Part shown: positions 2,180 through 61,384 of the stretch, one piece after another
How positions within the stretch are numbered: position 1 is the stretch's first letter
How the letters are laid out: each line of letters opens with the position of its first letter
Assembly: GCA_964016885.1 (NCBI GenBank)
Contig: OZ024742.1
Span: 42,284,001 to 42,348,000, forward strand
Direction of reading: 5' to 3'
Length of the DNA stretch: 64,000 nucleotides
From: Eledone cirrhosa
Taxonomy: Eukaryota
The notes under the pieces: generated by a model
What the model saw: the letters and a program-made list of their open reading frames with translations, nothing else
Told to the model about the DNA's origin: nothing
The model's database searches: none
Made by a program: the position numbers and the translations under genes

Positions 2180-5100
2180 TGTAGTGCTCTCTAGACAAGG
2201 GAAGTAGCTAATGGTGACCCCGAACACGCAGCAAAAAACAAATCCATTTATTCACCATCGCCTAAAAGTGGTGACAAATATTTTCATACACTATTACAAT
2301 TTATTGCTACACAAACTATTGCTAAACAATTCACTAAAACGGTGAACCCAACAACAACACAGAAAAGAATTGTTCTCGACTCTAGGAAGTTCATTTTATT
2401 TCAGTCAGTTCGTGTGGGGCAAACAAAATAAAAAAATTGAAGAAACAAATCGTCATGTTGACAGCGTGATACTACACCAAAATAAAAAAAATAAAAAATG
2501 TCCCTCGCGTTTTCGGTTCAACCAAGCTTTCGTTTTTTTTTAAGTCACCATCTTACTTGCTTGGTGCTATATTTTTACTTCAGCTATTCATGGTACTACC
2601 ACGTGTGCGGTAGTTACCCCCCCCCCCCCGCATTATGGAATTTTCTCGTGTGCCTACTTCAGCAGTTTCAGTCGTCACTTCTTCTGCTTTCAAAACCCAG
2701 CCTGCTTCACCTCGTGAGGACTCAATGTTGAGAGTCATTGATGTGTTAACTCGGCATCTCTATCCCAGTTATTTCAAGGTTTTCGATCATACCAAGTCAG
2801 AATCAACCCAGCTAAATGTGTGTTTGGTACAGGTTCACTGGAATTCCTTGGACATCTTATAGATTCGGAAGGCATTCGACCTCTGCCATCTAAGGTGGAA
2901 GCGATTCAGCGCATCGCACCCCCACCTCCCTGAAACAATTACGTCATTTCTTGGGATTAATTAACTTTTATCGTCGCTTCATTCCTAACAAGTTGTTTCC
3001 CTTGACACAGTTTTTAAAGGCTGTGAAAAAGAAAGATGCTCCTATTTCACTTTCTGCTGATGCCTTGGAGTCTTTTGAATCCGTCAAGTCCAAGATAGTT
3101 TCCTTCCTCGCCCATCCTGTTGCAAACGCGAGGCTTTCTTTAACTGTTGATGCATCCGATCATACTGTTGGAGCAGTTTTGCAACATACGATCGACCACC
3201 AGGTTCAACCACTGGCATTTTTTTCACGCCAACTTAAATCAACTGAACAGAAATACACACCTTTGACAGAACTTTTGGCAGTTTATCTTGCCGTGAAGCA
3301 CTTCCACCATTTTTTGGAAGGGCGGGAGTTCACGATATTCATGGACCATAAACCGCTAACATTCGCTCTCCAATCCAAGTCCGACAGGTACTCTCCGAGA
3401 GCATATAGTCATTTGGATCTCATCTCCCAGTACACCAGTGACATTCGTCATATAGCCAGAGCTGCCAACATACCCACGGACGCACTATCTCGACTTTCTG
3501 TGTTCTCTTGCGTCTCCTGCACATATCAATTTGGTTGCCATGGCAACTGACCAACCTACTTTGGATTCGTTGGACATTTCATCTGACCAGTTCTCCTGCT
3601 GCAAATTGGAATATTTACCTCTTCCATCTTCTGAAGGGAAAATTCTCTGCGATATTTCTACTGGCTCACCCAAACCGCTCGTTCCAGATTGTCATCAACG
3701 TACTGTGTTTGATGCACTTCATTCCTTGTCGCATCCCGGCATATCTGCCACGGTGAAGCTCATCATGGCCCGATTTTTCTGGCCTAATATGCGTCGTTTA
3801 ATCACCGGCTGGGCACGTTCTTGTTTGAAGTGTCAGCGTTCTAAGATTTACCGACATGTCTGTACTCCTCTTGGCAAATTCAGCCCGCCAGACGCCCGTT
3901 TCAGTCATATTCATATGGATATTGTTGGTCCGTGGCCCGTTAATCGTGGGTTCACATATTTATTGACCTGTATCGATCGTTTCTTTCGGTGGCCTGAGGC
4001 CATACCACTAGTGGACATAACAACTGAGTCCGTTGCTCGAGCTTTCATTTCCAATTGGATTGCACGCTTTGGTGTTCCTTCTAAAATAACTACGAATCGC
4101 GGACGACATTTCGAGGCTTCCTTATTTCGTTAAATATCACGACTCTTGGGTGCTCATCACATTCATACGACCACCTATCACCCAGCCTCCAATGGAATGG
4201 TGGAGAGGTTTCACAGAGATTTGAAAGCTGCATTTCGTGCTACTCCTGATCTGCAACGTTGGACCAAATTTTTGCCAATCGTGCTTCTTAGTTGTCATTC
4301 TGCCATTAAGACAGATTTGGGTTTCTCTTCTGCTGAACATCTTTATGGTACCACCTTGACTCTTCCTGGTCAAATGTTAGCACCGGTGGATTCATCGCAT
4401 CTTGACCCAGCATCATATGTCACCAGTATTCGTTCGTATTTCTCGGATCTTCCACCAATGAACCCTCGTAACCAGTCTATTTCTTCTGCTGTTCCATCGG
4501 ACATCTCTATGTGGACACACATTTTTGTACGGAATGATTCTGTCAAGGGACCTCTTACGTCACCCTACAATGGACCTTTTCGTGTGCTTTCGCACACACC
4601 AAAACATTTCACAGTGGTTGTCAATGGTCGAAAAGAGACAATATCCATTGACAGAGCAAAGAAGGCTTTCTCTGAAAGTCTCATTACAATGCCTGACATA
4701 CCTTGTACATACACTCCCACACCAACACCTTCACCTCCACTACAAACACCACATACCACACAACCTTATGTCACACAAGGTGGCAGGACAGTAAAATGGC
4801 CACGTAAACTCTCAAAAACAATATACATTTAAACCCTAGTGGCATTAACAAACTTCTTTTTTCAGTTTCAGATAGAACTAATCAGAAAAGTCTGTACACT
4901 AGTGATGTATGAACTATTTGATTTTGAAGAAACTTTGAACTTACCATTGAGCATTAATTTTTCTCTGCTCCTTTATATTAACTTTGAATTATTAGTTTGT
5001 TACATTCACATTTTTTCTTTGTAAAATGCATTTACTTGTTTTGTGCTTTTTTTTTTGCTATTTGCTTCAGTTGCGAGCTCATGTTTTATTCATGCACTTT

Positions 5101-13147: not shown

Positions 13148-15403
13148 ATATGGCCTAATGCCATAAAAAAGTTGGATTTTCTTTGCTCACTGTATGAAGA
13201 GACTGACTAATGCATAGTACAATTTCAAGGAAATCGGTCTGACGTAACGGCTCAAAAAACCCCTAAAAAGCTGGAAAGTTTTTCACCTAATGCGGGCCCT
13301 AGGGGATCAAAAAGTTGAATTTTTTTATGTGCATAACACTCCCTGAAATATAAGTAATACACTTGTAAAGTTTGAAAAAGATCAGTTGGGTACTTCTCGG
13401 GGTTTCACACACATACATCCTTCCTCAGTTTTATATATATACATATATAGATTAAAATAACAGATTAAAGTTTAAGCAAAGAATCGTTGTTTTCACCCTT
13501 AACGGAATCTTCTGAAACTAAAAACATCAATCTGTGAACGCAGAAGTAAATATTTCGAAAAACGTTGCAACCGAAGGAAAACAGGAAGACGATACTTTGG
13601 TTCATGAAGACGTTCTCAGGGAATGAACGGATAATAATGAACATAATATGTCATCAATGGTCGTCAGAATGTTTTAATGCAGACAGCCAGGCATACAGAC
13701 AGATGATATAAGAGCACAACGGAGATGAATAACAGGCGCCTAACAACAGAAAATTGAAAAATAAAAGCTGTAGTTAATATCTTTAGACTGCAGGGAATAT
13801 ATAAATGCAAGTTTGAAGTCAATCGGAGTAGAAATGTGGATTTGTAAAGACTTTGCAAAGATGAGGACACACACACACAGACAACATCAGTTTTATATAT
13901 ATAGACTAGCAGAAAACCACCCGGTGGGCAGTTTTCTGCTAGCAAATCTACTGTATATACTGATATTGTTGAGATTTGGATGAGAAATGTTTTCTGCACC
14001 ACATGTTCACCGTCTCTCGGTGTGTCTTTTATGCATGTATAAATATATATTTTATCTATACGGTGAAATCTTTGAAATAAATATATGTTAAAACGAAAAA
14101 GGAGAAAATAAATAACTGGCGGTTATAAAAAAATATTCCTATGAAATTTTAATCATACCATTAGGTGTGAATAAGGAAATATTTTTTTATTCTCAAAACA
14201 AATGTTCAAAAGTTAAACTTCAATTTTTTGAATTATTTCCAATTTTTTCATGAAATTGAACACTGGCTGCTGGAAATGGAAATTAAATCGTATTTAATTG
14301 TATTTAAATTTCTCACCTTATTTTATTATTTATATTTTTTCAATAAGAAATTAAAAAAAACAAAAAAAATTGAAGAAAAACATTGAACAAATCAAACGTA
14401 GGTTATGGAACTGCGCAATCTGATTAATAAATTACCTCATCAGCAGCAACCTTCTTCAAATGGTCCTTATTATCAGCAGCAACAACCACATTCAATGGCA
14501 AGCTTCTTCAAACCACAAATTCAATGGCAACCTTCTTCGCATGGTGTCAAGTCAGAACCGCCTCGAACTGGTTACTTCTGGCTTGTGCAAGGTGTCTCTA
14601 TAGCAACCAGCGATTCCCTCGGCCTCAGTGACCAAAGTCAGTGGAGAGGGGAAGGTAATGTTTCTATAGCGACAGTGTTTCTCTTGGAGAAAGGAAGGGG
14701 AAGGTAATATTTCTGTAGCACGTGTTTTAGCGTCTATTCACTCTCTCTCTCTCTCGCTATCCTCCTCTCGTAGTCTGTCTCTTTCTTTCACTCTCACTCT
14801 CTCTCTACGCACGTGTTTCCACTGTCGGACAGACAGACAGACAGAAATTGCTGGTTATATATATAAGTAGACTAGCAGAAAACCACCCGGGGCGGTTTTC
14901 TGCTAGTCTATATATCTAAAACAGAGAATGTCTGTCTGTCTGTCAGCTCACTAAAACTTGAGAACCATCCAACCGATTGTTTTCAAACTTTAGACATGTA
15001 ATACTTATGGTCCTGTGAGTGTTTTGAGCAAAAATTATTTCAAATTTTCAATGCCCTAGGGACCGCATTAGGCGATTTAGCGTTCTCTCTATATAATTCT
15101 TAGTCTTTCTTTTTAGATAGATACATAGATATAACATTGCGCCCTTATAATATCTGTCTGGCTGTCTGCATTACGTCATTATGACGCGCTCAGCGCGATT
15201 CCCTCAGCCTCAGTGACCAAAGTCAGTGGAGAGGGGAAGGTAATGTTTCTGTAGCACGTGTTTTAGCGTCTATTCACTCTCTCTCTCCCCCTCCCGCTAT
15301 CCCCCTCTCGTAGTCTGCCTCTTTCTTTCACTCTCACTCTACGCACGTGTTTCCACTGTCGGACAGACAGACAGAGAAATTGCTGGTTATATATATAAGT
15401 AGA
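13148..15403 (-). mobile_element. Cluster of non-autonomous Helitron units
   Basis: Minus-strand 5' ends TCTA(TATA)n...(CTGT)n at 15403, 14871, 13905 and ~13451; CTAG 3' ends with terminal hairpins at 14872 and 13906; one plus-strand 5' end at 14907; internal sequence shared with the Helitron at 48957-53964; 14610-14871 is duplicated at 15195-15403. Confidence 0.75.
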
Positions 15404-25396: not shown

Positions 25397-25550
25397 CATG
25401 GGTGGAGGTGGTGAGAGCAGACCTCAGATCGCTGAAACTCACGAAAGAGATGACAAAGAACCGTGACAAGTGGAGAGATGCTCTGCTGAATAGGACCCGT
25501 CCAATCCTTGCAAGCAGGGAAAAGTGGACGTAAAATGATGATGATGACGA
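25397..25550 (+). mobile_element. RTE LINE extreme 3' end
   Basis: Closely matches 60755-60906 (TWxEVVRADxRSL...RDKWRDALLNRTRP) and ends in a (ATG)n tail. Confidence 0.85.
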
Positions 25551-27102: not shown

Positions 27103-28510
27103 CCAGACTCTTTTGCTATCAGAAATGCAGTGAAACAGTGATTAACCATTAGAAATGTGCAACTAACGATGCTATTGTTTACTAATTGTAATATAAAATA
27201 TAATAAATACTAAATAATAAATCTCAGAGCTAACAAAAATACAAAAAAGATACATTTTTTTGTATACAAAATAGTTTTCCATACATCTACTTCCAACCTA
27301 CATAAAAATGCAGATGTTCACAAACACACAACTGAGGTGAAATAAAATAAGAAATATTTCAGATTATGATTTACTATTTTCAGATCTACTAGTTGTCTTA
27401 TTAATTCGACAAAAAAAAAATGATATTTTTAGTCTTAATCACAAGGATTTGTTGGTGTTATAAATCGGTATCTTGGTGATTGAGTTTCAGTCGTTAATTA
27501 AGCAGATTATAAGATTATAAACCTTATGTGAGAGGTTGAAATTAAAAGCTTGAGGGATGGATGAGAGAGAGAGAGAGAGAGAGAGAGTATAATGCAGGCT
27601 TATTAGCTTATACCTAACTGTAAAAGCAATTGGCCAATGTATAAATATAATGGATAAGGAATATATAGGAAATCTCTGTAATGAATCTGTAGCAGAATTT
27701 AATCTTAAACAAACAGAATAATGAAAATATAGAACTGTCCAAGTAACCAGAGGCTTTAGATTTTAAGTAGCAGCTGGATCTTTCAAATTTCTAAGGAGAT
27801 AATCTTCTCAGTGTGAAATATTCACGCTTATCTGTATGGAGAGAAGAGTATGCAGTAGAACAAAGGAAATATGAACTGAACTCAATCTTAAATTATTGTA
27901 AGCATTAGTGTGCATGAAATAATTCCCTATATACTTATTTACTATGTAATCAATCCAGGTATTTGATGACTGAAAATGATACACAATGGCCAGTCAATTC
28001 AAAGGCAATCTATAATCTGATTTCCCTGCAGGTTCAGATGATTTTGTGTGGGAGTGATTGAGGAAATGTTTTATATTGTATTGTAGTCATCTGATCAGAC
28101 TAGCTTCAAAATGTGACAACCCATCTAATCCATGCAAGCATGGAAAATAGATGTTATATATACACTTCAACAGCATTCTAATAAATATTATCTGTAAAGG
28201 TAATCAAAGTCATCATCATCATCATCACCGTTTTACGTCCGTTCTTCCACGCTAGCATGGGTTAGACGGGTTGTCCTGTTGTGTGCAGTGTCTGGTCGGC
28301 TGACCATGCCTTGCTCATACAGGAACTGATCTGGCTTGATTTCTACAGCTGGATGCCCTTCCTAACACCAACCTCATTTACAGTGAGTGCTGGGTGCTTT
28401 TTCGTGGCGCCTACACGTCCACTTTACAGTGTGGGCTGGGTGCTTTTTTGCCGTGGCACCTCCACGACCACCTTGCGGTGGGGGGTGTGGGGGCATATTG
28501 TTTATATGCT

Positions 28511-29677
28511 TCAGCATGTACCCATGGGAGGTCGGGTACTCTGTATTACTGCGTGACGCCAGAAGTCACGGTTGTGTGTCATTGTCTTTGAGAGGTGTAA
28601 TTGGGTAAGGTCGGCTTTTATCACCTCATCCCAGGTCATCTTGGGTCTCCCCACTCCGCGGTTTCCATCAACTTCTAGTGCTCTGCACCTTTTTATGCAG
28701 CTGTCATCCTTCATACGCATCACATGTCCATACCAGCGCAACCGCCTCTCCTGCACACAGCATTTGATTCCTCTTATGCTCAGTCTCTCTCTCAATTCAT
28801 TTATGCTTTGTCGTTCACGTATATTACTGTTACACATCCATCGGAGTATGCAGGCTTCGTTTCTCTCTAATCTACGTAAGTCTTCCACCTTCAGCACCCA
28901 GGTCTCACTACCATGCAACATCGGTGTTCGGATACACGCATCATACAGTCTGCCTTTCATTCTGAGGGAGAAGCCTTTTGCAGCTAGCAGTGGTAGTAGT
29001 TCCCTAAACTTCTTCCATCCCGTTCTTACCCTAGTTATTGTACTTTCTGAACACCCACCTCCGTTGCTAATTCGGTCACCTAGGTAGCAGAAGCTGTCTA
29101 CTGTTTCTACAGGGCCCTCCCAGAGATTGGTGGTACTTGTTTCCTGTGGCTGTTTGCTGCTTGCTGTTTCAGCACAGCTGCTGCATGTGAATCCTACATT
29201 CTTAATTAAGCTTCCTGAGATCCCGCTACATCTCTTGTGTACCCATTGTTTGCATTTGGGGCAGAGAATGGAGTTCCTACCTACACCTTTCCTACATACT
29301 GAGCAAGGCCATTTCCCTGAGGGGATCTGGGTTCTGCTTTCTCGTCTACTTACAAGGACCTTAGTCTTTGTCATGTTGACTTTGAGACCCTTTCTCTCTA
29401 GTCCCTGCTTCCAGGTTTGGAATTTATTCTCTAGTTCTATCATAGATTCAGCTATGAGTGCGAGGTCATCAGCATACAGGAGTTCCCATGGGCATCCGGT
29501 CTTAAATTCCTCCGTTATTGCCTGCAGGACTATGATGAACAGGAGAGGGCTAAGAACAGAGCCCTGGTGGACCCCAACCTGTACGCTAAATTCCTCGCTA
29601 TACTCATTGCTCATCCTAACTTTGCTGACTGCTCCCCTATACATGGCTTGTACCGCTTTCACAAGCCATTCATACAT
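28511..29677 (-). mobile_element. 5'-truncated RTE-clade LINE with an open 388-aa RT and C-terminal ORF, in EMC10 intron 1
   Basis: GVHQGSVLSPLLF, LLYADDLAL, GLKVNMTKTK, Cys-rich insert CSVC...CPKC..WVHKRC...CSSC, FCYLGD, GSETW, RRLRWYGHV, GRPKMTW. Adjacent 28210-28480 is a SINE body with a (CAT)n tail. Confidence 0.92.
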
Positions 29678-29713
29678 ACAAGTATGTATACATTTTTGGA
29701 GGACAACCTATGT

Positions 29714-44808: not shown

Positions 44809-47800
44809 TATATATATATTTATTTGGCAGTATGTGTGTCTGTATCTTAGAGGTTTGACAAAAAAGTGATCAATAAAATGTGCCTGGCATGAAAAAATAA
44901 GTATCGGTGTCGATATGATTGACTAAAACAAGATGGTGCCCCAGCATTCCTACAGTCTACTGACTGAAACAAGTAAAAGAATAAAAGAACAACTAATGCA
45001 AACCTGACTGGCTAGGTGGATTGGCAGTATCGGTAGAGGGTCGGACGCCATGCTTTGACGCATAGTTACGGCCCTTGCCATTCTAAGTTCAAATCCCGCT
45101 GAGGTTAACTTTGATTTTCATCCTTACGGGGTCGATAAAATAAAGTACCAGTAATGCACTGGGTATTTGCTGGCCTTGTGCCAAAAAGTAGATACAATTC
45201 ATTAGTGATATCATTAATACAGCATGATTCAGAATAAAGGCATATAAGAACCCATATTATACCAATTTACAATACCTACTATATGTTAGAGAGCACAGGT
45301 TAAGAGCTGTTGATTGCTTGTCTGATTAAATAGAAGCCTTATCACCTCAGCTGTCCACATTTTCCCACTGACTACTAACCTGTAGTATTTCAAATTTAAT
45401 ATCAGCCACACTAACTTCATCAAGGTATTATCATATTCTGCTTTCCTTCTAAAGCAAAATGGCTATGAGAACAACACCATTATAAGCCAATGATACAGCT
45501 TCTATATTGTTGCTTTGCTTGCTAAAAAAAAACCCAGCTAAATCTTCCTCAAACAATATCTTACCATTGTAAAGATGAAAGGCAAAATTAACCTTGGCAG
45601 GATTTGAACTCAGAATACAGGGGTGGAACAAATACTACAAGGCATTTAATCCGACACTCTAACATTACCAATTCGCTATCACATGAATTTTAATATCGCA
45701 AGGAGAAGAGGAACTGGATGTTTTACATCTGTCCTTTCATCTGAGAGTGAGAAGTAAAAGGCTAAATTGGGGTGGGGAAGATTTCTTTTATTTTTCTTAA
45801 CACCAGTTATCTTTTTTCCTCATGGTGTATGAACTTATCTGAACTCATGATCGTCTCTGCAAACAACTAAGCTTATATTCTGTAGGACTCGGTTAAAAGA
45901 AATTTTATGTATCATTATAGTTGGCATTGTTTTTTATGCCCACTTTTCCTTGCTGGCATTGGATGGATGAGACAATTCTACAGCCAGATGCTCTTCTTCA
46001 TGCCAACTGTTATTTTTATAAGTGTGGCATTATTCCACTGATTTTCAACTTTTAAACTGCTTAGCTGCAGGACATAAATAAATGGCACAAAATTTTAAAG
46101 CAGTGTCAGTACAGACATGTAGAGACATGCATGCATGCGTATATATGTATATATTAAAATTTACTGTTCTCCATCTACCCACTCTCGTTTCTCACCCACC
46201 ATAACCAAATAACATGTATATAAAACAAACACAGGACATGTCTACAGTTGGATGGGACCATCCATGTAAACTCGCATATCTGAAGAAGTATCGATTAAGA
46301 GTCGAGATCCGATTGCTTGATAAAACCCAAGCTGATCGATATATAGACAATTGTAATATGCAATAAAGTTTCATAACAAGCTGCAAATCTGACTTCCTAT
46401 TGTCACTATACACATACACACACACACATATATGCATGTGCATGCACACACACTATGACAGGCTTCTGTCCATCTAACTTCATTCACAAGGCATTGGTTA
46501 ACCCAAGGCCTCAGCAGAAGACAACCACTCATCAAAGTACCATGCTGTAGGTGCAAGCCCCAAAACCACACAGTCACAAAGGAAGCAAACCTCTTAACCA
46601 TGCAGCCATATCTGTGCCTGTATGTATTCATTGAAATGCCAATCATATCTCAGTTTGAATGACAGTTATTCTTATCTGAAATTCCATTGTGAAACTTCAG
46701 GAATGCTTCCTGCTTCAAATCCATTGCTAATAGTTATTGTAGAGAATAGAGCATCTCTCAGCAGTTCAACATTTACTGAAACTTCAAGGTCTCTTTATCT
46801 CTGTAACATTCTTTAACACCAACGTTTTTACTTCCTTGTTTTTTTTTTTTGTTACATTTTCACTGATATGTAAAATATTTAAATTTGATTCAGTTTATAA
46901 ATAATTTATGGTGGTGAGTTGGTTGAGTTCTTAGAGAGTGTGGAATAGAATGCTTTGCAGACGTGGTTTAGGCTTTCTGCATTCTACTCTGAGTTCAAAT
47001 TGCTCTGGGTGGTCAGTTTTGCTTTCTATCCTTTTGGAGTCAATAAAATACTAGTCAAGTACTAGGGTTGATTTTTCTCTCTCTAACGCTCTCCCTCTCT
47101 GTGCTTCTCTCTCTGCTTTTCTCTTGATTCAAGAGTTAGGTTAAAAGATTAAATTTACAACTCGCACTTATGCAGATTTAGCTGGCTTCATATGAGGCAG
47201 CTTCTCATGTTTCTTTGGAGTTTTAATAATAGGGGCCCCCTAAATAAAGTGTATTGATCAAAAACACTATGCATGATTGGGAGTCCAACACACTAACTCC
47301 TAGGCCTTCACTTCAAAAGTTGGCAGTTGCAGATGATTAGGTAAAATTGCTTTAATAGTTTGTTTTTATTGAAGCTATCCATGTACTACATACACTAGTG
47401 TGGGAAAGCCTGAAGTAAATAAGTGCTGCTTCTCTTTCAACTAAAGATAACAATGTCTTTGTTTTATTTGACATTAAGTCATATATGTGAAAAACAGACC
47501 TTCCCAAAGTGGGGGAATTCTTTAAAAAGTTTGTTTTTTTTATGTTATGTCTTTTAGAAATGATTATTTATTTTTGACACATTGTGTAAATCAAACCTTC
47601 CCAAAATGGGAAGGTCTGGTGTAAATGATGCAAGATATTTTGTATTGCACTCTACTGATTTTGCTGTTCATCAGCTTCAAAATGATAATAATTGGTGTCA
47701 TTATTAGGGCAATAAAGGGCGTTGGATTAGTAGTATCGGAGGAGTGTTGGACACCTTGCTATGCAGCATAGAGTTAAGGCCCTTTCGGTTCTGAGTTCAA

Positions 47801-50800
47801 ATCCTGTCGAGGTTAGCTTTGCCTTTCATCCTTATGGGGCCGATAAAATAAAGTACCTGTCATGCCCTGGGGGTTGATTTAATCGAATTTCCCCTCCCCC
47901 CAAAATATTGACCTTGTGCCTAAATCAGAAACCATTATTAGGGCAATGGCTTGGCAAAGTTGTTAACACATCAAAGAAAATGTTGTATGGTATTTAGTTG
48001 TGCCTCTTTACATTCTAACTTAAAATTTTGTCACGGTCAACTATTCCTTTCATCTTTGCACGTTCAATAAAATAAAGTAACAATCAATTAATAGTCAATT
48101 TAACCATTCCATTGCCATATTTCTAATGAAAGAAACTGCCTATGATTTCAAAACCATCTTGAAAATAATCAAATGTTGTCCAACCTTTGCTAACAAGGAA
48201 AGCCGATGTTAAATGATGATGCTGGGGATGAACTAACTTTCTCATAATTAGGTTAGTGTTTGAAGCATAACTTAACCCTTTAGCATTTAAACTGACCATA
48301 TCTGGCCAGAATTCTCTCACCCCTTTCTGTCAAAACCAGCTGTAACCGGCTGCTCATACTTATATTAAGGTATTGTTCTCAAAATAAATAATATCAAAAT
48401 CTCATAGATTCAATATTATGCGAGATAATTATATGAAAAAAGTGTTTACCATGAAAATACAATAGTAAATATAGAGTAATGTAAAGGCTAAAGGGTTAAA
48501 GGTACTGACAGAATTATGATAGAAAGTTTTTAGATAAATATAAAGTCTTTAAAATTTATCATAGAACCATAGACAGTTTCAGTGGTTTTGTATCAACTTT
48601 CTTGTCCCTCCAAGTGACTGGCTTTGTGTTTAATTTAGAAGCCATTATTATGAGGGCGATCGATTGGCAGTATCGGTAGAGCATCGGACAACATGCTTTG
48701 CAGCATAGAGTTAAAGACCTTTACATTATGAGTTCAAATCCCACTGAGGTTAGATTTACCAATAATTCATTTTATTGATCTTAGAGTAGTGGATCCCAAA
48801 TTTTTGTTGCAGATCTCTTTTATGATTTTACAAAAATCACGGAATTCATATTCTTTGGAGAATTCCAACCACACTAATTTTAAGAGATTAACCCTTTAGC
48901 ATTTACATTACTCTATATATACTATTGTATTTTTGTGGTAAAGGCTTTATCTTATACTAGCAGTGGTACCCGGTGTTGCACGGGATAAGGTATTTTGGAA
49001 CGCGGGCCCCCCAACAGACCTAATCGTGGAAAAACTGCATGCCAGGACAATATGTAAAGAAAATAAACCGAATACTCTGATGGCTGGATAATCTTTAAGA
49101 TTTTCCTCGATGAAGCAGGAAAAATGCAGGTTTTCACCTAATGCGGGCCCTAGGGCAGTGGTCGCCAACATGGGTTCCGCGGAACCTTGGGGTTCCGTAA
49201 AACAAACTCCGGGTTCCTTAAAAAAATAAATATTTACATTACCATTAATATTTTGGGTTTTCTGAAAAAGGTGCAAAGAAAATGCCAAAGGTGCAATGTA
49301 TAAATGAACAAGTACTATTGTAGTGTACACAGGTTCTCCACTCCAATTCGTCGAAAACACTACTTTCAGTTTCTCACTTGAATTAGCAGAAAAACACTGT
49401 TCTGAGATTCGTGGAAATTGAATACTTTCAATTTCACATCAATTCTTGAAAAGACATAGTTTTCTGAATTCCGAGGATTTGACTACTACTCATAATACAC
49501 TATTTGAACTTAGAAATTGACCAATCACGAACAAGTAAATGTTGGTCGATGACAGCATAACTTTAAACTGAAAACTTCAGTTCAGCGAGGTCTCTCAGCC
49601 AAGAGGCAGGGTCAGTTCGCTGTTCTCACAACGTAAGTTCAGTAGAATGTTTTCAATAGAGAACACGTTTTAATCTGCTGCCCTCACAAAAGCTTTAAAG
49701 TCGTCTAAAGTTTCCTCACTGAGTGAACTCGCTTACTAGTCGTTTTCAACATGCATCCAGTTCCACAGACAATTCTAAATAAGAACACGTTACATTCTAT
49801 TGTACTTTGCACAGAAAATATAATGCCTGTAAAGTTTTGACTACTAACAAAGGTAATTTTGTATTCCATGCATACACTATAAACTTTTCCACACAATTAT
49901 GTATTCATTTAATGACATCTGCATTCACAATTGAGAAATTACTTTATACAATAAATATATATGTCCATAAACATTTGACTAAACTTTATTTGTTCCAATC
50001 TAATATATGTTTAACGCAGCCTAAAGCCTTCTTATATTATATCTAACTTTGAGTCAAAATAGATAGAAGATATCTGAATTAATTTCCAATACCATCGTCA
50101 CATCTACACTATCAGCTGATTTGCATTTTTTGCACCTTTTAGTATGGCGGATATTTAAATATATTTACATTACCAATAATATTTAATACAACCCTAAAGT
50201 AGTATATGCAGGAAGTGCTGGACTCTGAAAAAAATTTCTTCTAATTGTTCATAAATTTGCACCTTTTTCAGTAACCCTTAATATTTTAATATTATTATAA
50301 GACTTTAAATAATATGTTTGCCATCCTAAAATGGAGAAATTTCAATTTTTAAAAATTAAAATTTTTTTTTAACTAGTTAAGTTTTTCCAAATATCTAAAA
50401 TTAAAGTTAATTTAAGTACTTTTTGTAATTTAAAAAACTGTTAATTTCTCTTGTTTATTAATGTCATATTAAAAATGTTAACTGTAGATAAATAACATTG
50501 ATATAATGTCTACTGCAAAGAAGCTGAAGTTAGATACCAGCAGTAAGGTTAGACAGTGGTGTGATGATTGTTAGATATGGATTTCAAAAAGTTGACACTA
50601 AAAAAGATACACCAGATCAGCCCATGTGTTTGCTATGTTCAAAAGTTCTATCAAATAGCTGTTTAAATCCTGCTAAACTTAAGACACATTGATACTAATC
50701 ACACCAATGATAAAAACAAGTCACTGGAATACTTTACTTCGCTGAAAAACAACATTAAAAAATCACAAGCTAATATGTATGACTTGTTTTATAAAAAAGT

Positions 50801-51760
50801 CAGATAGAAATAAAGCTTTAACAAGAACATCTTTTGAGATTTCACATTAGGAGAACAGTTAATTCTGCCAAGTATAAAAATTGCTACAGAGAATCTTTTT
50901 GAAAGCTGCAGTATTAAGGACAAAGAAAAATTAAGCCAGTTACCATTGTCAGCAAATACCGTAAAAAGAAGGATAATTGATATTTCTTCTTATATAGAAA
51001 ATCAGATACTAACTGCACTAAAGAAAAGCCCATGTTTTGGACTGTAAGTGGACGAAACTACGGATATTAATAACAAGGCTCAATTAATTTGCTATGTACG
51101 GTTTGTAGACCTTGATAAAAAAGAATTAGTAGAAGAGTATTTGTTTTGTCTGGCATCACAACTAAAGGTCAAGATATATTCAATAAAATTGAAGAGTATT
51201 TTTTAAAAAATGGTGTATCTTGGAGCAAGTTGACTTCAATAACAACAGATGGAGCAGCTACAATGACTGGTAAAAATTCTGGTTTGATTGCAAAAATTAA
51301 AGAACAGACTCCAAATTGTATTTCAATTCATTGTATGATTCATCGAGAGGTTTTGTGTTAAAAAAAAATTCAAAGACAGAGCTGCTCAAATATTAAATGA
51401 CCAGCTGAAAGACATTGTCAAAATTATCAATTTGATCCATGCAAGAGTAAAAAATTCTAGAATGTTTGAATCTATTTGTGAATCTTCTGGAAGTAATTAT
51501 AATAGATTGTTATTGAACAATGATGTGCGTTGGCTGTCTTTTGGGGATGCTATGAAGAGAGTTTTTGAACTGAGAGAAGAAATAATAGTTTTTCTAAAAA
51601 AACAATGATGAAAGAGCAAGTGTATTAGAAACCAATGAATGGAATGTGCAACTCGCTTATTTAGTAGACATTTTTGGTGAACTGAACAAACTAAATAAGT
51701 GTCTTCAGGGTAACAATGCAGATATTTTTACTTCAATCAATTTTATTACATATTTTCAAG

Positions 51761-52105
51761 GAATGCCCTGAAGAATTTGTTGACAATACAAAGCCAGATA
51801 ATGATAAAATAGATAGGAAAGCTAAAGATGAAATCCATCAATTCAAAGAAGCCATCTTTCCCAGTGACTACAACCCAGATAACAAGAAGAAGCGAGCTTC
51901 AGGAAGTGATGCATCACATGAATCTAGCAAACGTCCACTTACTGACCAAGACTTGAAAGTATTGTGCATGGAGGGAAAGCTGGAAAAACTTAAACTGGCT
52001 GAACTAGGAAAAATGATGAGAGAAAATGATATCAAATGTTTTGCAAAGAAAAAGAAAGAATTAATTGATGCCATCAACAACCATTATGGTGTCAGTGGCA
52101 CATAG
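51761..52105 (+). pseudogene. XRCC6: Ku70 C-terminal gene fragment (linker + SAP domain), stop-free, 5'-truncated copy
   Basis: ECPEEFVDNTKPDNDKIDRKAKDEIHQFKEAIFPSDYNPDNKKKR...SKRP...EGKLEKLKLAELGKMMRENDIKCFAKKKKELIDAINNHY resembles human Ku70 [41 protein letters not shown]...SKRPK...[38 protein letters not shown] (recalled); 3' UTR with AATAAA 52180-52185. Confidence 0.85.
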
Positions 52106-52197
52106 ATCACCAAAACAGTTAATATATAATAGACATTACAAGCAATGAATGTCAAAGATTGAATTAAGTCTGGGTAAAAAATAAAATAATACACACA

Positions 52198-52535
52198 TGG
52201 AGGCACATGGCTTAGTGGTTAGCGCATTGGCCTTGCAATCGAAAGGTTGTGAGTTCAATTCTCAGACCGGGTGATGTGTTGTTTCCTTGAGCAAGACACT
52301 TTATTTCACATTGCTCCAGTTTACTCAGCTGTAGAAATGAGATGATAGGGACTGGGGCCCATATCATTCCACTGCAAAGTGGTCGTGGAGGTGCCACGGC
52401 AAAAAAGCACCCAGCACTCACTGTAAATGAGGTTGGTGTTAGGAAGGGCATCCAGCTGTAGAAATCAAGCCAGTATCAGTTCCCGTCCCACCCTTGCAAG
52501 CAGGGAAAAAGCGGTCGTAAAATGAAATGATGATT
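52198..52535 (+). mobile_element. Full-length tRNA-derived SINE family B (CORE-like centre, RTE-derived tail)
   Basis: A-box TGGCTTAGTGG, B-box GAGTTCAATTC, CCTTGAGCAAGACACTTT core, tail CCCTTGCAAGCAGGGAAAAAGCGGTCGTAAAATGAAATGATGAT. Near-identical copy at 57168-57516(-); older or partial copies ~340-463, 19090-19365, 26550-26825, 61130-61220. Confidence 0.9.
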
Positions 52536-55099
52536 TTCAATCAAAATTAAACATCTTTATAAAAAGAATTGAATTGGACAATTACTTTCAAACCTTGAAA
52601 TAGAGCTTAAAGAGAGAAAATTTTGACTCCAGCAATCTAAAGAAGATTATTCTTTCTCATTTAAATGTGCTTTCCACAGGTTTTTCAGATTATTTTGACT
52701 TGATGGAAAAAATATTGTTAGCAGAAATTTATGGATAAAAACCCGTCCACCGAGATCGAGCAGTTAGTGTCAGAAAATGACGCTGGAAATTGTAAAAATT
52801 TACTACCTGCACAATGCTTACATCAGTTGATGGATTTGAATTCAAACGAAGACCTGAAAGTGATATTTGAAAGCAGAAAGAAAGAACTATGGATCGACTT
52901 ATTCTTGATTGGGGAGTTTAATGAAATCAGCCAACTTGCATTGAAGTATTTGACTTTATTCCCATCTAGCTACTTGTGCGAAGGGTTTTCGCAGTTGGTG
53001 GAAATCTGCACAAAGAGGAATAAACTGTCAGCAATTGACGAGTGTATGAGACTGGCATTAACTAGTGTTGAACCTCGATTTTCTAAACTCACTGATGAGG
53101 CGCAGCAGCAGAAAAGCCATTGTGTTCGATTACATACACACGCATGAAACACTAAAATAAATAAATACTTTATTTTTTTTGAAAAGTTTTGTATTGTATA
53201 GGTTCCGTGAAGAATTCAAAATATTTAGAGGGTTCCTCGGTTTTAGAAAGGTTGGCGACCACTGCCCTAGGGGATCAAGAAAATGAATTTTTTTTATGTG
53301 CATAATATGCCTTGAAATTTCGGGAAAATCGGCTAGACGTAACGCCTCAAAAAGCCCTAAAAAGCTGAAAAAAGGAAGTTTTTCACCTAATGCAGGCCCT
53401 AGGATTTTCTTTGCTTACGGTATGAAGAAGAGACTGACTAATACATAGTTACAATTTCAAGGAAATCGGTCTGACGTAACGCCTCAAAAAACCCCTAAAA
53501 AGTTGGAAAAAAACGCAGTTTTTCACCTAATGCGGGTCTTAGGGGATGAAAAAGTTGAATAACACTCCCTGAAACATAAGTAATACACATGTAAAGTTTG
53601 AAAAAAGTCGGTTGGGTACTTCTCGAGTTTTAGGATTCAAACTCACACACACACAGACAGACACAGGGAAGTGACGTAATGCAGACAGTCAGACATACAG
53701 ACAGATATTATAAGGGCGCGACGTTATATTTATGTATCTATCTAAAAAGAGAAAGACAAAGAATTATAGAGAGAGATCGTTAAATCGCCTATTGCGGTCC
53801 CCAGGGCATTGAAAATTTGAAATTGTTTTTGCTCAGAACACTCCCTGAAACATAAGTATTACATGTGTAAAGTTTGAAAACAGTCGGTTGGGTGGTTCTC
53901 GAGTTTTAGGGATTCAAACTCACACACACACACAGACAGACATCCTCAGTTTTATATATATAGATAATTGTTTCTACTTTAGGCACAAGGCCAGCAATTA
54001 CCCAGTGCATTACTGGTACTTTATTTTATCGACCCCGTAAGGATGAAAGGCAAAGTCAACCTCAGCGGGATTTGAACTCAGATCGTAAAGAGACGTAACT
54101 ATGTTGGAAAGCATGGCGTCCGACCCTCTACCGATACTGCCAATCCACGACACTTTATATATATAGATACTTATCTCACATAATATCAAATCTATGAGAT
54201 TTTGATGTTATTTAATTTTGAGAATAATACCTTAGTGTCCATATGAGCAGCCAGTTACAGCCAGTTTGAACAGAGAGGGGTGAGAGAATTCTGGCCGGAT
54301 ACAGCCGGTTTAAATGCTAAAGGGTTAAATGGAACAAAAATATATTTAGTGAGAGAATATATCCACATAAAGTTTTATAAAGTTTTATTAATACACCTTA
54401 TCTCATGTGTTCAATTCCTGGCCACATCATTTCATATTGTTTTTCATAATACATAAAACACCCAAGGAACCTTCTTTGATATGCAATCTCACATGAAGGT
54501 AGCTAAACCTGCACAGGTGTGAGCTGTAAATTTAATTCCATTTTTTTTTATCTTGTATGTAGTACTACTCACTTATGGAAATACTGATTTAGAACAAATA
54601 AAAGTATTTGGTGCACTCTGAGCATATTGTTACAAAAATGTATTTATATATTTTAGCCTATAAATATAAATAACTTAACCCTTTAGCATTTACATTACTC
54701 TATATTTACTATCATATTTTTATGGTAAAGGCTTTATCTTACATAATTACCTCACATAATATCAACTCTATCAGATTTTTATATTATTTATTTTGAGAAC
54801 AATACCTTAGCATTAGTATGAACAGAAAGAAGTGAGAGAATTCTGGCCGGATGGCCGTTTAACAGGAAATTATTTTGTGCTTATTTTTTCAGTTTATATT
54901 TTTTACATTTTTTAAATATAATTTTATTCTCTGAGTGTACTTAACTATATTTTGTAGTACACCTAACCACATTTTGTACTGCAATGTTTGGGAGGCCTGA
55001 TCTAGAGGGACGTAAATTGGTATAACTAAATACTGCAAATATTTGGTCTCATTTTGAATTTTTACTAAATTTGATGAATCCCCCTTTTTCTCTTTCAAG

Positions 55100-56829: not shown

Positions 56830-57622
56830 GGAATGTATCATGTAAATAGAATTTAATAAAAACAGAAAATTTAGATTGAGAAGAAAGAATGGAATCTAAA
56901 ATAGGAAAATATAAAGAAAAAAGACAAAAAAAAAACCCAGAAAAGGGAGAGAATGGCAATGACTCTAGTATCACAGAAGAGTGGGGAGGGGAGGATGATT
57001 GGACCTAGGGCTCAGTGGTAAAAGGGCTGTGCCCCATGGACAAGACCACAGAAGCATTCCCACAGACAATGGCCAGTGATACCTGCTGCAACAGCCACCC
57101 TATCTCACGGGGCTCCTTCTTCAGATGGGCCGCCGACATTCTGATCTTGCAGAGGAGCTCAGTTGTATCATCATCATTTCATCATTTCATTTTACGTCCG
57201 CTTTTTCCCTGCTTGCAAGGGTGGGACGGGAACTGATTCTGGCTTGATTTCTACAGCTGGATGCCCTTCCTAACACCAACCTCATTTACAGTGAGTGCTG
57301 GGTGCTTTTTTGCCGTGGCACCTCCACGACCACTTTTGCAGTGGAATGATAGGGACCCCAGCCCCTATCATCTCATTTCTACAGCTGAGTAAACTGGAGC
57401 AATGTGAAATAAAGTGTCTTGCTCAAGGAAACAACACATCACCCGGTCTGAGAATTGAACTCACAACCTTTCGATTGCAAGGCCAATGCTCTAACCACTA
57501 AGCCATGTGCCTCCATGGGGGTCCAAATACGTCTGAGGTCTTGACAGTGACTGGTGCGAAGAGGAAATGGCCAGACAATCCCCGGTATTTGTTTACCTTC
57601 TTTTCCTCTGCAAGAAGGGCTG
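56830..57622 (-). mobile_element. 3' fragment of a CRE-like (RLE-type) non-LTR retrotransposon, split by a family-B SINE
   Basis: Minus strand ALLAEEKKVNKYRGLSGHFLFAPVTVKTSDVFGP [SINE] TTELLCKIRMSAAHLKKEPREIGWLLQQVSLAIVCGNASVVL..*, fitting the AExxKxxKY / FxPxxxET / QRxSLAIxRGNA pattern of CRE-clade endonuclease C-termini. Confidence 0.7.
57168..57516 (-). mobile_element. Full-length SINE family B
   Basis: Reverse-complement match to 52198-52535 over its whole length. Confidence 0.9.
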
Positions 57623-60606
57623 TGTTTTTCATCACATATTCTGTGATTTATTTGTTTTTCTTCACAGAGAACAACAACAAATAGTGATTGAGGAGGTCAC
57701 AGAATATGTGGCGAAAGAGTTTTGATAAAATAACCAACAGCTAATAATAATAAAGCTGATATGAAAGTCAAATAGTGCATGTTTTTTATTGGCAAAATGA
57801 CTATCCCCAAATATAACAATATCCGTTTCAACACATGGTTCCACATCAAGAATCTTGCAAAACAAATACATTTTATATTGTCTTTTTTTTTCAAGCCAAT
57901 GATATTTATTTTAAGATGTAGTTACCTATAATTCTCTCAAATGTTTGTCATTATTTTCTCCAGGTTAGTAAGAAGGCAAATAAAAGCTAACTTCATAGCT
58001 CAAATGTTAAATAGCTAAAGCCATATATCAAAACTGAATTATGTACATGATATGTCTACTTTCCCATGGTGGTATGAGATAGATGAGACTTTCTCAAGCA
58101 GTATATTTCTATGACCAAACCATGCTTTATTTTCAATTATCGTATATACACTCTAAACCCATGCTAGCATGGAAGATAGACATTACATGATGATGATGAT
58201 GATGACACTGCTGACATTGTATTCTTAAGCTGTAGTATTGTTTATGCTGGACCTCAACAAGTCTCACAACTCCAAACAGCTTTAATATGAAGATGCCATG
58301 TCGAAACACAAGCATGCACGCGCATCATCATCATCGTTTAACGTCCATATTCCACGCTTGCATGGGTTTGGACGGGGGTTTTCCCACTTGAGGCAAGAGT
58401 GGTTGTCTTGCTCGCATAGGACTGTCTGGCGGGTTTTCTACGGCTGGATGCCCTTCCTAACACCAACCACATTTACAGTGTGGAACTGGGAGGTTTTTAC
58501 CGTGTTACCTACACGGCCACATTATAGCGTGGACTGTGTGTTTTTTTGTTGTGACACCTACACGACCTCATTTGTTTCATACATTGGGCATTAGTCTGCT
58601 GATCTACATATCTTCAGGAATACAAATCTTGCCATAACCATCAACATAAAAACATGCAAAGAGGTAAAAAGTAACTTCATATTACAATATATATATAATT
58701 GAAGTATTTCCGTAGGAAAGGTAAAGGAAAAGAGTGCTCTTATTTTTCCCCTTTGCATTATGTCCAGTATTTTATTTCAGCCTCGCTTTCATTTATACTA
58801 GAATCTGTTTTGAAATCCATATCTCACTTCCATTTTAATAAAATTCATTTCATTCTGATGATTGAAAGCAGACGTATGTGCCAAGCTCGTCTATCTTCGT
58901 GAAACCTTTGGTAAATGAAATCTTATGTTGTTTATTACATAACTATATATATATATATATATATATATAAAAGTTTAACCCTTTAGCATTCACATTACTC
59001 TATATTTACTACTGTATTTTCACAGAAAAGGCTTTATTTAACATAATATTGAATCTATGAGATTTTGATATTATTTATCTTGAGAACAATACCTTAATGT
59101 CAGTAAGAGCAGCTTGTTAATCATACAACCATGCTTGCATTTACATTTTGCTTTATTACAATTATACATTGCTTTTATGTGAGACATTCTACTTGCTTCA
59201 GTTCTCTTTAGCTAAAAACAAACACCATTTTGAGCTGATGATGTTTTGTGGAGTTGGGCTATGTGATTGCTCAACCTCTCCAAACTTGTAACCAAATTTT
59301 TCTCAAATTACATTCTATCATCTTAAAAAAGTTGAACACATTGGATGGTATTGTTCTGTGATGGTCATGGCTGAAAAATCTTTGATCATAAGTCTGCTTG
59401 ATCGGAGCTGATCACCACCATGATAATGACATGTACCAGCAAACCAACAATGACACTTTATATGGTCGTTTTACCTGCTAGAAATAGCAGCTGAATATCC
59501 CTCAAATTATACTCCACCCTTGGCATAAGGAAGGGACACATTTGTTCATGTAGTCCTCCATGCATCTAAAAAGACGATGGTCATGGCTGGAATGCATTCA
59601 ATCTTATGTCTGCTTGATTTGAGTTGACCTGGGGCTAAATAACATTGCTTTTCGTCCATTTTTCCATGCTGGCATGGGTTGGATGGGTTGAGACTGGACA
59701 GGTAGGAGAACCTTGTTTTACTTATGTTCTATTTTTGGCATAGTTTCAACAGCTGGATGCCCTTCCTAATGCTAACCACTTTACAGAGTCTACTGGGTGC
59801 ATTTTATCATGGCACCATCACTATGTTGAGTGTAATTGGTTTTAGGAAGTTTCCACTTATAAAAACTGCTGTTCCAATAATTTATGCAAATATTCATGTA
59901 AACAATTTATTAGTGGGGGAAAAAAATGGTCAAAATATATTTTATAAAACAAGAGCAAGTATTAAGTTCTTAGAAAGTTTTATGTCAGGTATCAGTGTAA
60001 CAGTAAGAACATAAAATTATTACATAATGTTATGGTGATTGTTAAAATTGGCAACTTCTCTCAAATTAATAAGGAAGCTTCTTTGTAGTTGCTCAGGATG
60101 TTAGAAATAGCAGCCAAATTCCCTTAAATCACACTGTACTGTTTTAAATAAGGAAGGAAGTCTTATGTTAAGATTAGCAACTTCTCTCAATCCAACAATG
60201 GAGCTTCTGTGCAGTTGTTCAATCTGTTAGAAATAGCAATTGAAAGTACTGAGGGAGTTTCTTCCTTAAAACAGGAAGAACACATTGGATAATGTAGTTA
60301 TAGATGTTTAAAAAATAGGATGGTCATGGCTGCTAAGATTCTACTATACTAAGTTGTTTATTTTAAAGTGTGTATGTTTACCTAAAAACCTTCCTTGGTA
60401 ATTTTATGTAAGAACATCAGCTTAATGATGAGAAAGTTCATTATATTACTAAATCTCTTAATTATTTTCAAAATTCATTAAAAATCATAGACATTTTATA
60501 TTTTTTATTAGAAAAATTAATGAAATGAAATTTAAGCTTACACCTATGTAAATTTAGCTGGCTTCCTACAAGCTTTTATCTCATAAGTTTCTCAAGTGTT
60601 TTAACC

Positions 60607-60906
60607 CTTTTGGGTATAAGAAGGATAAGTTGTGGTGTGCAGGAGAGAAGGCTGAGATGGTATGGACATGTGATGCACATGGAGGTTGACCGCTGGGCAA
60701 AGAAGTGCCAAGAAATCCCAGTAGAAGGAAGACGCAGTAGAGGTAGACCACGTAAAACATGGGCGGAGGTGGTGAGAGCAGACATCAGATCGCTGGAACT
60801 CACCAAGGAGATGACGAAGGACCGTGACAAGTGGAGAGATGCTCTGCTGAATAGGACCCGTCCAACCCTTGCAAGCAAGGAACAGCGGACGTAAAATGAT
60901 GATGAT
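60607..60906 (+). mobile_element. RTE LINE 3' end
   Basis: GIRRISCGVQERRLRWYGHVMHM...VEGRRSRGRPRKTWAEVVRAD...; ends GGACGTAAAATGATGATGAT. Confidence 0.9.
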
Positions 60907-61384
60907 TATTCTATATATACTATTATATTTTCACAGTAAAGGTTTTACTTCACATAATATCGAATCTATGAGATTTTGATATTATTTATTTTGAGAACAA
61001 TACCTTAACGTCAGTATGAGCAGCCAGTTACAGCTGTTTTGAACAGAGAATTCTGAAAGAATTCTGGCTGGACACAGCCAGTTTAAATGCTAAAGGGTTA
61101 ATGATAGGTGCCTCACTCCTGTCAAGGAAAGCAACGTGAAATAAAATTTCTTGCTCAAGAACGTGCCATCCAGTCCACAAATTGAACCCATGACCTGATG
61201 ATTTTAATCCATCACCCTAACCAGTAGGCTGCATACCTTCTTTAACAATGTGGTAACATAATAGTTAAATGAGATTTTTTCTCTTATCTCAGATGTTTGG
61301 TTACTTTTAATGATCTATAACTGTTTATTCATTGTAATTAACAATTGGAGTGATTATAATTAAACATCTATCCTGTCTGTTTAG

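What the first reader, a model, noticed from the sequence alone, without database searches (positions are those of the whole stretch)
49156..53264. hAT transposon with intact ends carrying an NHEJ-gene (Ku70 SAP) cargo
Seen: perfect TIRs and a perfect 8-bp TSD around a transposase with many frameshifts, while the Ku70 segment inside has no stop. The cargo is out of frame with the local transposase frame (codon starts 51715 vs 51716) but has an upstream ATG at 51716 giving a 129-aa ORF. Known: Ku70/80-dependent NHEJ repairs cut-and-paste excision sites, and the Ku70 C-terminus carries a basic NLS region and a DNA-binding SAP domain. Inference: intact ends with a dead transposase suggest mobilisation in trans, so the element could have spread this cargo like a Pack-type element; any effect of a free SAP peptide on repair is speculative. 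The simpler reading is that the cargo is just a younger one-off insertion.
Basis: partly seen in the sequence, partly recalled or inferred. Interest (0 to 1): 0.7.

Follow-up and report, generated by a model that had tools for sequence, protein, structure and literature searches.

The report
SINE-tailed Ku70 fragment inside decayed transposon
A recent copy of the tail end of an octopus DNA-repair gene, joined to a short mobile element, landed once inside an already broken DNA transposon; it looks like an ordinary RNA-copying accident, not a transposon that spreads a repair gene.

Summary
The hAT is real: 49156-53264, perfect 14-bp TIRs, 8-bp TSD CCCTAGGG, broken transposase. The Ku70 piece and the 129-aa ORF are real too, but the insert was mis-drawn. 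Contigs of three runs bridge the insert-free transposase at 51751->52533, so the insert is 51760-52532 and has its own 8-bp duplication, ATTTTCAA. It consists of a 5'-truncated Ku70 3' end (346 nt CDS, 93 nt UTR with AATAAA) joined to a full-length young SINE. The SINE tail matches a LINE 3' end and abuts the duplication. The cargo matches a probable parent mRNA contig at 440 of 442 nt, so the lack of stops is expected (P about 0.92). Intact ends are also expected at this copy's roughly 1.4% divergence (P about 0.54). Best reading: one LINE-driven retro-insertion into an already decayed Buster-type hAT, most likely from a Ku70 transcript ending in a SINE. No evidence for spreading in trans, selection or expression was found. 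Copy number could not be counted (no genome), and intron loss is not shown.

The parts
49148..49155 (.). Left 8-bp TSD of the hAT, CCCTAGGG (palindrome, central TA as in Buster-family targets), inside a high-copy host repeat
   Evidence: empty form in paralogous repeat 13277-13349; joint 49146->53264 in X1 and X4 (may come from paralogous repeats)
49156..49169 (+). Left TIR, 14 bp
49156..53264 (+). hAT DNA transposon copy, 4109 bp (3328 bp without the insert), non-autonomous
50506..51759 (+). 5' part of the decayed transposase (stop at 51045, several frameshifts, a missing block near 50848); its frame stops 5 codons into the insert
   Evidence: DUF4371 E 0.0027, below cut-off
51716..52105 (+). 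129-aa chimeric ORF: 14 codons of out-of-frame hAT DNA plus the Ku70 C-terminal arm, basic linker and SAP-equivalent domain
51752..51759 (.). Left copy of the insert's own 8-bp duplication ATTTTCAA; its last 3 nt also match the parent Ku70 contigs (5' microhomology)
   Evidence: (contigs align from 51757)
51760..52105 (+). 5'-truncated Ku70/XRCC6 coding end, from the equivalent of O. vulgaris residue 484 to the stop
   Evidence: 2 differences in 442 nt to X4 contig 10, 0 to X1 contigs 5 and 6
52106..52198 (+). Ku70 3'UTR, AATAAA at 52180-52185, ending 13 nt later with no poly(A)
52199..52532 (+). Full-length young SINE, tRNA-like head, 3' tail shared with a LINE RT remnant, ends in ATG-type repeats
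   Evidence: (98% to 57179-57514; tail 87% over 54 nt to 60857-60907)
52533..52540 (.). Right copy of the insert's 8-bp duplication; transposase resumes here
52533..53147 (+). 3' part of the decayed transposase, including the hAT dimerisation-domain region
   Evidence: feature score 0.97 to clusters carrying PF05699 in 13-34% of members
53251..53264 (-). Right TIR, 14 bp
53265..53272 (.). Right 8-bp TSD of the hAT

Best explanation
Three steps. (1) Shown: a Buster-type hAT copy inserted into a host repeat, making an 8-bp TSD, and then decayed. (2) Strongly inferred: later, one non-LTR retro-insertion placed the Ku70 3' end and the SINE together, as a single unit, into the dead transposase. A LINE reverse transcriptase would have primed at the SINE tail, which it shares, copied through the SINE and the Ku70 3'UTR into the CDS, stopped at about codon 484, joined by a 3-nt microhomology and left an 8-bp duplication. 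(3) Inferred, less sure: the template was one read-through RNA from a Ku70 allele carrying the SINE just after its poly(A) signal (about 60% of this explanation). A template jump from SINE RNA to Ku70 mRNA takes about 30%, and two nested insertions about 10%. The cargo is a young neutral passenger; the 129-aa ORF is a chance by-product and is probably not translated.
For: Insert-free joint 51751->52533 in X1 (depth 558), X4 (9.5) and X5 (34.5), with 8 letters fitting both sides and no hAT base lost. The frame test agrees; chance of the 8-mer at a fixed place is 6.5e-5. The SINE tail abuts the duplication, and the SINE has no flanking repeat of its own. The tail is 87% identical to the 3' end of a LINE remnant whose ORF is 53% identical to an RVT_1-bearing ORF. 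X4 contig 10 (2064 nt) is gap-free over 51757-52198 and has 1483 nt further upstream, against 1448 nt needed for a 600-aa parent CDS, so it is probably the spliced parent mRNA (X4 is not on record as RNA). Age order: hAT copy 26 substitutions in 1821 nt plus 7 frame-changing indels among the 12 indel rows shown; cargo 2 in 442 (X4) and 0 in 462 (X1). One of the two X4 differences (51927) is not in X1 or X5, so it is probably that sample's allele. 26 ATGs lie between the transposase start and 51716; an in-frame upstream ATG occurs at 184 of 952 possible junction positions. For the read-through variant: X1 contig 6 (depth 40.7, about twice contig 5's 22) runs unbroken from the Ku70 UTR into the SINE; the 5' part is truncated and the 3' part is full-length, whereas in the chimeras described in PMC2104539 and PMC13174262 (passages) the 3' LINE or SINE partner is typically 5'-truncated.
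Against: Intron loss, the classic proof of an RNA route, is not shown; the only hint is that X1 contig 6 starts at 51891, at an AG that could be a splice acceptor. There is no poly(A) tail. The age difference is not significant against the independent sample (Fisher p 0.15 for 26/1821 vs 2/442; p 0.046 if 51927 is set aside; p 0.005 against X1, which may include this very copy). X4 contig 10 continues 139 nt past 52198 in sequence unlike the SINE, so that sample's retained transcript lacks the SINE, which counts against a fixed SINE in the parent. X1 contig 5 crosses 51892 and also continues 171 nt upstream in unlike sequence, and I cannot tell whether it is the parent, a second processed copy or a graph-simplification product. 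Up to 5 of the 8 duplicated bases could be donor-derived microhomology.
Confidence: 0.78

Rival explanations
1. Single-copy Pack-TIR by DNA gap-filling: a break in the dead hAT was patched by copying genomic DNA from the Ku70 last exon and an adjacent SINE. Still a one-off passenger, but with no RNA step.
For: Microhomology at both junctions (3 nt at the 5' side, 2 nt at the 3' side). Most single-copy animal Pack-TIRs form this way (PMC8277862 passages). Intron loss is not shown.
Against: No hAT bases are lost and 8 bp are duplicated. The tract ends exactly at the SINE's LINE-like tail. No parent Ku70 lies in the 64-kb window (tblastn), whereas 160 of 281 Pack-TIRs lie within 15 kb of their parent; the window reaches only about 11 kb on the right side.
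Confidence: 0.11
2. One reading: the dead hAT was mobilised in trans with its Ku70 cargo and has spread it as a multicopy Pack-type element, possibly expressing a free arm+SAP peptide.
For: Ends are intact. The family is young, and high-depth contigs lack this copy's lesions, so an active helper may exist. The ORF is open and its C-terminal part models as a SAP fold.
Against: Intact ends and an open ORF are both expected by chance at this age. Contigs bridge the insert-free form in three runs, at depth 558 against 22-41 over the cargo in X1 (the tool warns that depth is no copy number, so this is a rough pointer only). Only 4 of 281 animal Pack-TIRs were multicopy. The ATG lies behind 26 others.
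Confidence: 0.06
3. Assembly artefact: a chimeric join of the Ku70 locus into a repeat.
For: X1 holds 0.89, not all, of the sampled words of 51600-52200. This hAT copy has many small indels relative to the high-depth contigs.
Against: A mis-join would not make an 8-bp target duplication at a frame-preserving point and end exactly at a SINE tail. The cargo itself has no indels against X1 or X4 contigs.
Confidence: 0.05

Closest known systems
NUKU: LINE-1-made KU70 retrocopies of primates (PMC8496227; passages seen)
   Same: A retro-inserted copy of Ku70 mRNA sequence with a target duplication.
   Different: Here only the last ~115 codons, no poly(A) tail, ends in a SINE, lies inside a DNA transposon, in a cephalopod. 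Intron loss, expression and selection are not shown.
Retrocopies aided by 3'UTR-embedded SINEs (Alu/B1; PMC5199112, abstract and outline seen); SINE tails shared with the partner LINE (PMC4758252, passages)
   Same: Host mRNA 3' end continuous with a sense SINE whose tail matches a LINE 3' end.
   Different: Here the copy ends at the SINE tail itself rather than at a poly(A). Whether the parent allele carries the SINE is unresolved: X1 suggests yes, X4 no.
Template-switch chimeric retrogenes (WEIRD-MgSINE, PMC2104539; mRNA/Alu-L1 chimeras, PMC13174262; passages seen)
   Same: Two RNA-derived parts inside one target duplication, same orientation, retroelement part at the 3' end.
   Different: In those the 5' partner is usually full-length or a first exon and the 3' partner is truncated; here the 5' partner is truncated and the SINE is whole.
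Pack-TIRs of animals (PMC8277862; passages and Methods section seen)
   Same: Host gene fragment between the two ends of one TIR element; single-copy cases arise without transposition.
   Different: That study excluded retroduplicates and parents with flanking TEs. Here the insert duplicates target bases instead of filling a gap and carries a SINE tail.
Buster family of hAT transposons (PMC3517528; passages seen)
   Same: 8-bp TSD matching nnnTAnnn, short TIRs, under 4 kb, hAT-type transposase remains.
   Different: One decayed copy; not placed on a transposase tree here.

Membership tests
hAT superfamily | 8-bp TSD | tested here: met
   criterion from PMC3517528
hAT superfamily | Short TIRs (5-27 bp) and length under 4 kb | tested here: met
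   14-bp TIRs, 3328 bp without the insert
hAT superfamily | hAT transposase | tested here: met
   Atlas feature score 0.97, 21 of 30 hits in clusters with PF05699 (13-34% of members in the rows shown); Pfam DUF4371 only E 0.0027, below cut-off; no direct Pfam hAT hit; no hit at E<=0.001
Buster family | TSD consensus nnnTAnnn | tested here: met
   CCCTAGGG; one site only, so weak
Buster family | Transposase falls in the Buster clade | not tested
   no tree built; no reference transposases were retrieved
Retrocopy / non-LTR retro-insertion | Own target-site duplication | tested here: met
   ATTTTCAA at 51752-59 and 52533-40
Retrocopy / non-LTR retro-insertion | Colinear with the parent mRNA, 5'-truncated | tested here: met
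   X4 contig 10, 440 of 442 nt, no gaps; that X4 is RNA is inferred, not on record
Retrocopy / non-LTR retro-insertion | Introns lost | tested here: inconclusive
   X1 contig 6 starts at an AG at 51891 (hint only); gene models do not place an intron in this span
Retrocopy / non-LTR retro-insertion | Poly(A) tail (L1-type) | tested here: not met
   longest A run in 52150-52545 is 6; a SINE tail stands in its place
tRNA-derived SINE | 3' tail shared with a LINE | tested here: met
   87% over 54 nt to 60857-60907
tRNA-derived SINE | tRNA-like head | tested here: inconclusive
   Rfam tRNA 18.5 bits, E 0.38, below the gathering score of 29
Pack-TIR (Tan et al. 2021) | 100-5000 bp host sequence, at least 90% identical to a parent, inside one TIR element | tested here: met
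Pack-TIR (Tan et al. 2021) | Not a retroduplicate; parent without a TE in the flanking 100 bp | tested here: inconclusive
   anatomy points to retroposition, but intron loss and the parent's flank are unresolved
Multicopy Pack-TIR | Cargo-bearing copies at several loci with different TSDs | not testable with these tools
   no genome held; contigs drop rare variants
Ku70 SAP domain | Homology and fold of the Ku70 C-terminal domain | tested here: met
   phmmer to 1jjr E 0.0024; model pLDDT 87-92 over residues 81-120; Foldseek to 1jjr rmsd 1.2 A over 48 columns, prob 0.97, but E 0.92; Pfam SAP not hit

The most novel reading that the evidence does not exclude
A SINE newly inserted at the Ku70 poly(A) site let LINE machinery copy the Ku70 C-terminal arm and SAP domain into a hAT that still has perfect ends and belongs to a young family. 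A helper transposase has since moved this cassette to further sites, and some copies express a 129-aa arm+SAP peptide that could interfere with Ku at excision breaks. This would be a two-step RNA-then-DNA relay that loads a repair-gene fragment onto the transposon whose breaks that gene repairs.
Probability: 0.04. Interest if true: 0.7.

Novelty: new member of a known kind. Interest (0 to 1): 0.24.

Why it matters
As it stands it is a clean, young example of nested mobile DNA in an octopod genome. It warns that a gene fragment inside a TIR element need not have been captured by that element. Its modest value is mechanistic: if the parent allele carries the SINE at its poly(A) site, it shows how a SINE tail can license an ordinary mRNA for copying by a tail-specific LINE. 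That can be tested genome-wide in cephalopods, where SINEs make up 11.6% of the O. vulgaris assembly (PMC13282606, passages). It would matter more only if cargo-bearing copies or the peptide were found.

Tried and rejected
Whole genome: none held, so no copy count, no parent locus and no dN/dS; with at most 2 differences in 442 nt dN/dS would be uninformative anyway. My first guess of a 9-bp duplication at 51732/52536 was wrong: it is an internal repeat of the hAT and shifts the frame when excised. Sequencing runs: 9 listed, no RNA holder listed; 4 of 9 were laid. In the bin 51646-51792 the listed contigs account for the whole depth (X1 407.9 vs 407.9; X4 15.2 vs 15.1), so no hAT-Ku70 junction contig was laid in either run. 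Contigs drop rare variants, so this says nothing about presence or expression of this copy. Most table rows were hidden (403 letter rows, 68 indel rows, 247 joints, 1410 loose ends, 116020 pieces). X6 gave no cover over the cargo. Protein searches: no cargo-sized homologue among 5 candidates; no transposase relative at E<=0.001 among 258 candidates; 32 Ku70-like representatives, none informative on octopus introns. A weak tblastn hit at 46253-46351 (E 0.054-0.14; no Pfam hit) was treated as chance. ARAGORN found no tRNA. The Atlas hit for the LINE remnant was weak (0.91, recognition 1976), and the LINE clade was not determined. Literature: searches listed nothing on this locus or on an octopus Ku70 copy; two searches returned no papers. 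SAP papers were seen only as listings. No supplements were read; the Pack-TIR supplementary list (PMC8277862) may hold comparable cases. Earlier scan findings: nothing by sequence, place or first word set.
Full report
1. The observation. The element runs from 49156 to 53264, with a perfect 14-bp TIR and an identical 8-bp TSD, CCCTAGGG, on both sides. The TIR occurs nowhere else in the window at up to 2 mismatches. It sits in a high-copy repeat; a paralogue at 13277-13349 shows the single-TSD form, and contigs of X1 and X4 join 49146 to 53264 (these may come from paralogous repeats). The transposase is scattered over three frames. Its 3' piece scores 0.97 by features against clusters carrying the hAT dimerisation domain, while Pfam support is weak. 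The central TA of the TSD fits the Buster consensus nnnTAnnn (PMC3517528, passages). The Ku70 piece is 61% identical to Octopus bimaculoides and O. vulgaris Ku70, so the host is probably another octopod (inference). It covers part of the Ku_C arm and the SAP-equivalent domain (Pfam SAP itself is not hit).

2. No genome was held, so 4 of 9 listed public runs were laid on 49000-53400 (all are contigs). In 3 of the 4, a contig joins 51751 to 52533, skipping 781 nt with 8 letters fitting either side. Of three trial excisions only this one keeps the transposase frame open. The insert is therefore 51760-52532, between two copies of ATTTTCAA (chance 6.5e-5 at a fixed place), and no hAT base is lost. 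It consists of 346 nt of Ku70 CDS, 93 nt of 3'UTR with AATAAA at 52180, and a 334-nt SINE that starts 13 nt after the signal. The SINE is 98% identical to a copy at 57179-57514. Its last 54 nt are 87% identical to the 3' end of a LINE remnant at 60857-60907, whose ORF is 53% identical to an RVT_1-bearing ORF in the window. Sharing a tail with the partner LINE is a known SINE property (PMC4758252, passages). The SINE has no flanking repeat of its own, so Ku70 piece and SINE most simply arrived together.

3. The parent and the age. X4 contig 10 (2064 nt, depth 34) matches 51757-52198 with 2 differences and no gaps. It has 1483 nt more upstream, close to the 1448 nt that a 600-aa Ku70 would need. 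In X4 the cargo is deeper than the hAT (34 vs 9.5), the reverse of X1 (22-41 vs 558). I read X4 as an RNA run and contig 10 as the parent mRNA; this is inference, since its kind is not on record. Parent-like contigs align from 51757, three bases into the duplication, which is a 3-nt microhomology at the truncation point. The hAT copy differs from the high-depth X1 contigs by 26 substitutions in 1821 nt, and 7 of the 12 indel rows shown change its frame. The cargo differs by 2 in 442 from X4 and by 0 in 462 from X1. The order 'hAT first, insert later' follows from the nesting. That the hAT had already decayed is likely but only weakly supported by counts: Fisher p 0.15 against X4, p 0.046 if the X4-only letter at 51927 is set aside, and p 0.005 against X1, which may contain this copy.

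4. With 5.1% of point changes creating a stop, the CDS stays open with P 0.92 at 0.5% divergence. The 44 end bases stay unchanged with P 0.54 at 1.4%. The ATG at 51716 lies in hAT DNA, behind 26 ATGs counted from the transposase start, and 184 of 952 possible junction positions would have had such an in-frame ATG. The transposase frame itself stops five codons into the insert. The insert-free hAT is the form that contigs bridge. The X1 depth ratio of 14-25 points the same way but is not a copy number. No junction contig was laid, which is uninformative because contigs drop rare variants.

5. Mechanism. Best supported (0.78): target-primed reverse transcription by a LINE that recognises the SINE tail, giving one 5'-truncated insertion into a dead hAT. 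Shown: the junctions, the duplication, the parts, the tail homology and near identity to a parent-like contig. Inferred: the RNA step, because intron loss is not shown and the only hint is that X1 contig 6 begins at an AG at 51891. Also inferred is the template. For one read-through RNA from a SINE-bearing Ku70 allele: X1 contig 6 (depth 40.7) runs unbroken from UTR into SINE, where a SINE-less parent should have forked the graph (my inference about contig building); and the 5' part is the truncated one, unlike described template-switch chimeras (PMC2104539, PMC13174262; passages). Against it: the X4 transcript continues 139 nt without the SINE, so the SINE would have to be polymorphic. X1 contig 5, which crosses 51892 and continues 171 nt upstream in unlike sequence, remains unexplained. 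Rivals are DNA gap-filling (0.11), spread in trans (0.06) and mis-assembly (0.05).

6. Comparison. It works like a processed pseudogene helped by a 3'UTR SINE (PMC5199112, abstract) and recalls the primate NUKU copies of KU70 (PMC8496227, passages), but it has a SINE tail instead of poly(A). It looks like a single-copy Pack-TIR, yet that class was defined to exclude retroduplicates, and only 4 of 281 were multicopy (PMC8277862, passages and Methods section). An earlier, unchecked note of this scan describes SINE-tailed WEE2 retrocopies in a shark (e1-8038773); I did not test it, and it is a lead only. That Ku-dependent NHEJ repairs excision sites is recalled knowledge; SAP papers were seen only as listings. 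My searches listed nothing on this locus; no supplements were read.

7. Verdict. A real and well-formed nested insertion, a new member of a known kind. That the cargo is an NHEJ gene looks coincidental. Interest 0.24; the relay-and-spread reading has probability about 0.04 and would deserve about 0.7.

Noticed in passing
window 28319-28431 and 28511-29707 (-): A LINE remnant with an RVT_1 and PHD-like ORF; just 3' of it lies a stretch 92% identical to the middle of the SINE (52370-52486), so the SINE body may be partly LINE-derived or a SINE piece sits there.
   Followed up: partly
window 60529-60907 and 25496-25545: Two LINE 3' ends that share the SINE's last 54 nt (87%); candidates for the partner LINE family.
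   Followed up: partly
window 48439-48499 and 48888-48948: A 61-nt inverted repeat (90%) whose ends read TTAA-CCC, like a piggyBac-type MITE (recalled), with a SINE-like piece inside; related arms at 48272-48388 and 54212-54328.
   Followed up: no
window 49434-50685 (X4 contig 8): A contig of the probable RNA run joins 49434 to 50685 and also bridges the insert-free transposase; the ends are not GT-AG, so it may be an internally deleted hAT derivative that is transcribed.
   Followed up: no
window 50844-50848: This hAT copy lacks a block of about 26 nt that X1 and X4 contigs carry, and has many 1-8 nt deletions relative to its few substitutions.
   Followed up: no
window 13277-13349, 49113-49155, 53273-53700: The host is a very high-copy repeat containing the palindrome CCCTAGGG in several units; it may be a MITE family and a preferred target for this hAT.
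   Followed up: partly
window 2894-4832: An LTR-retrotransposon pol remnant (RNase H and integrase pieces).
   Followed up: no
window 51891-51893 (X1 contigs 5 and 6): Contig 6 starts exactly at an AG and has about twice the depth of contig 5; this may mark the parent's last intron or a second processed copy.
   Followed up: partly
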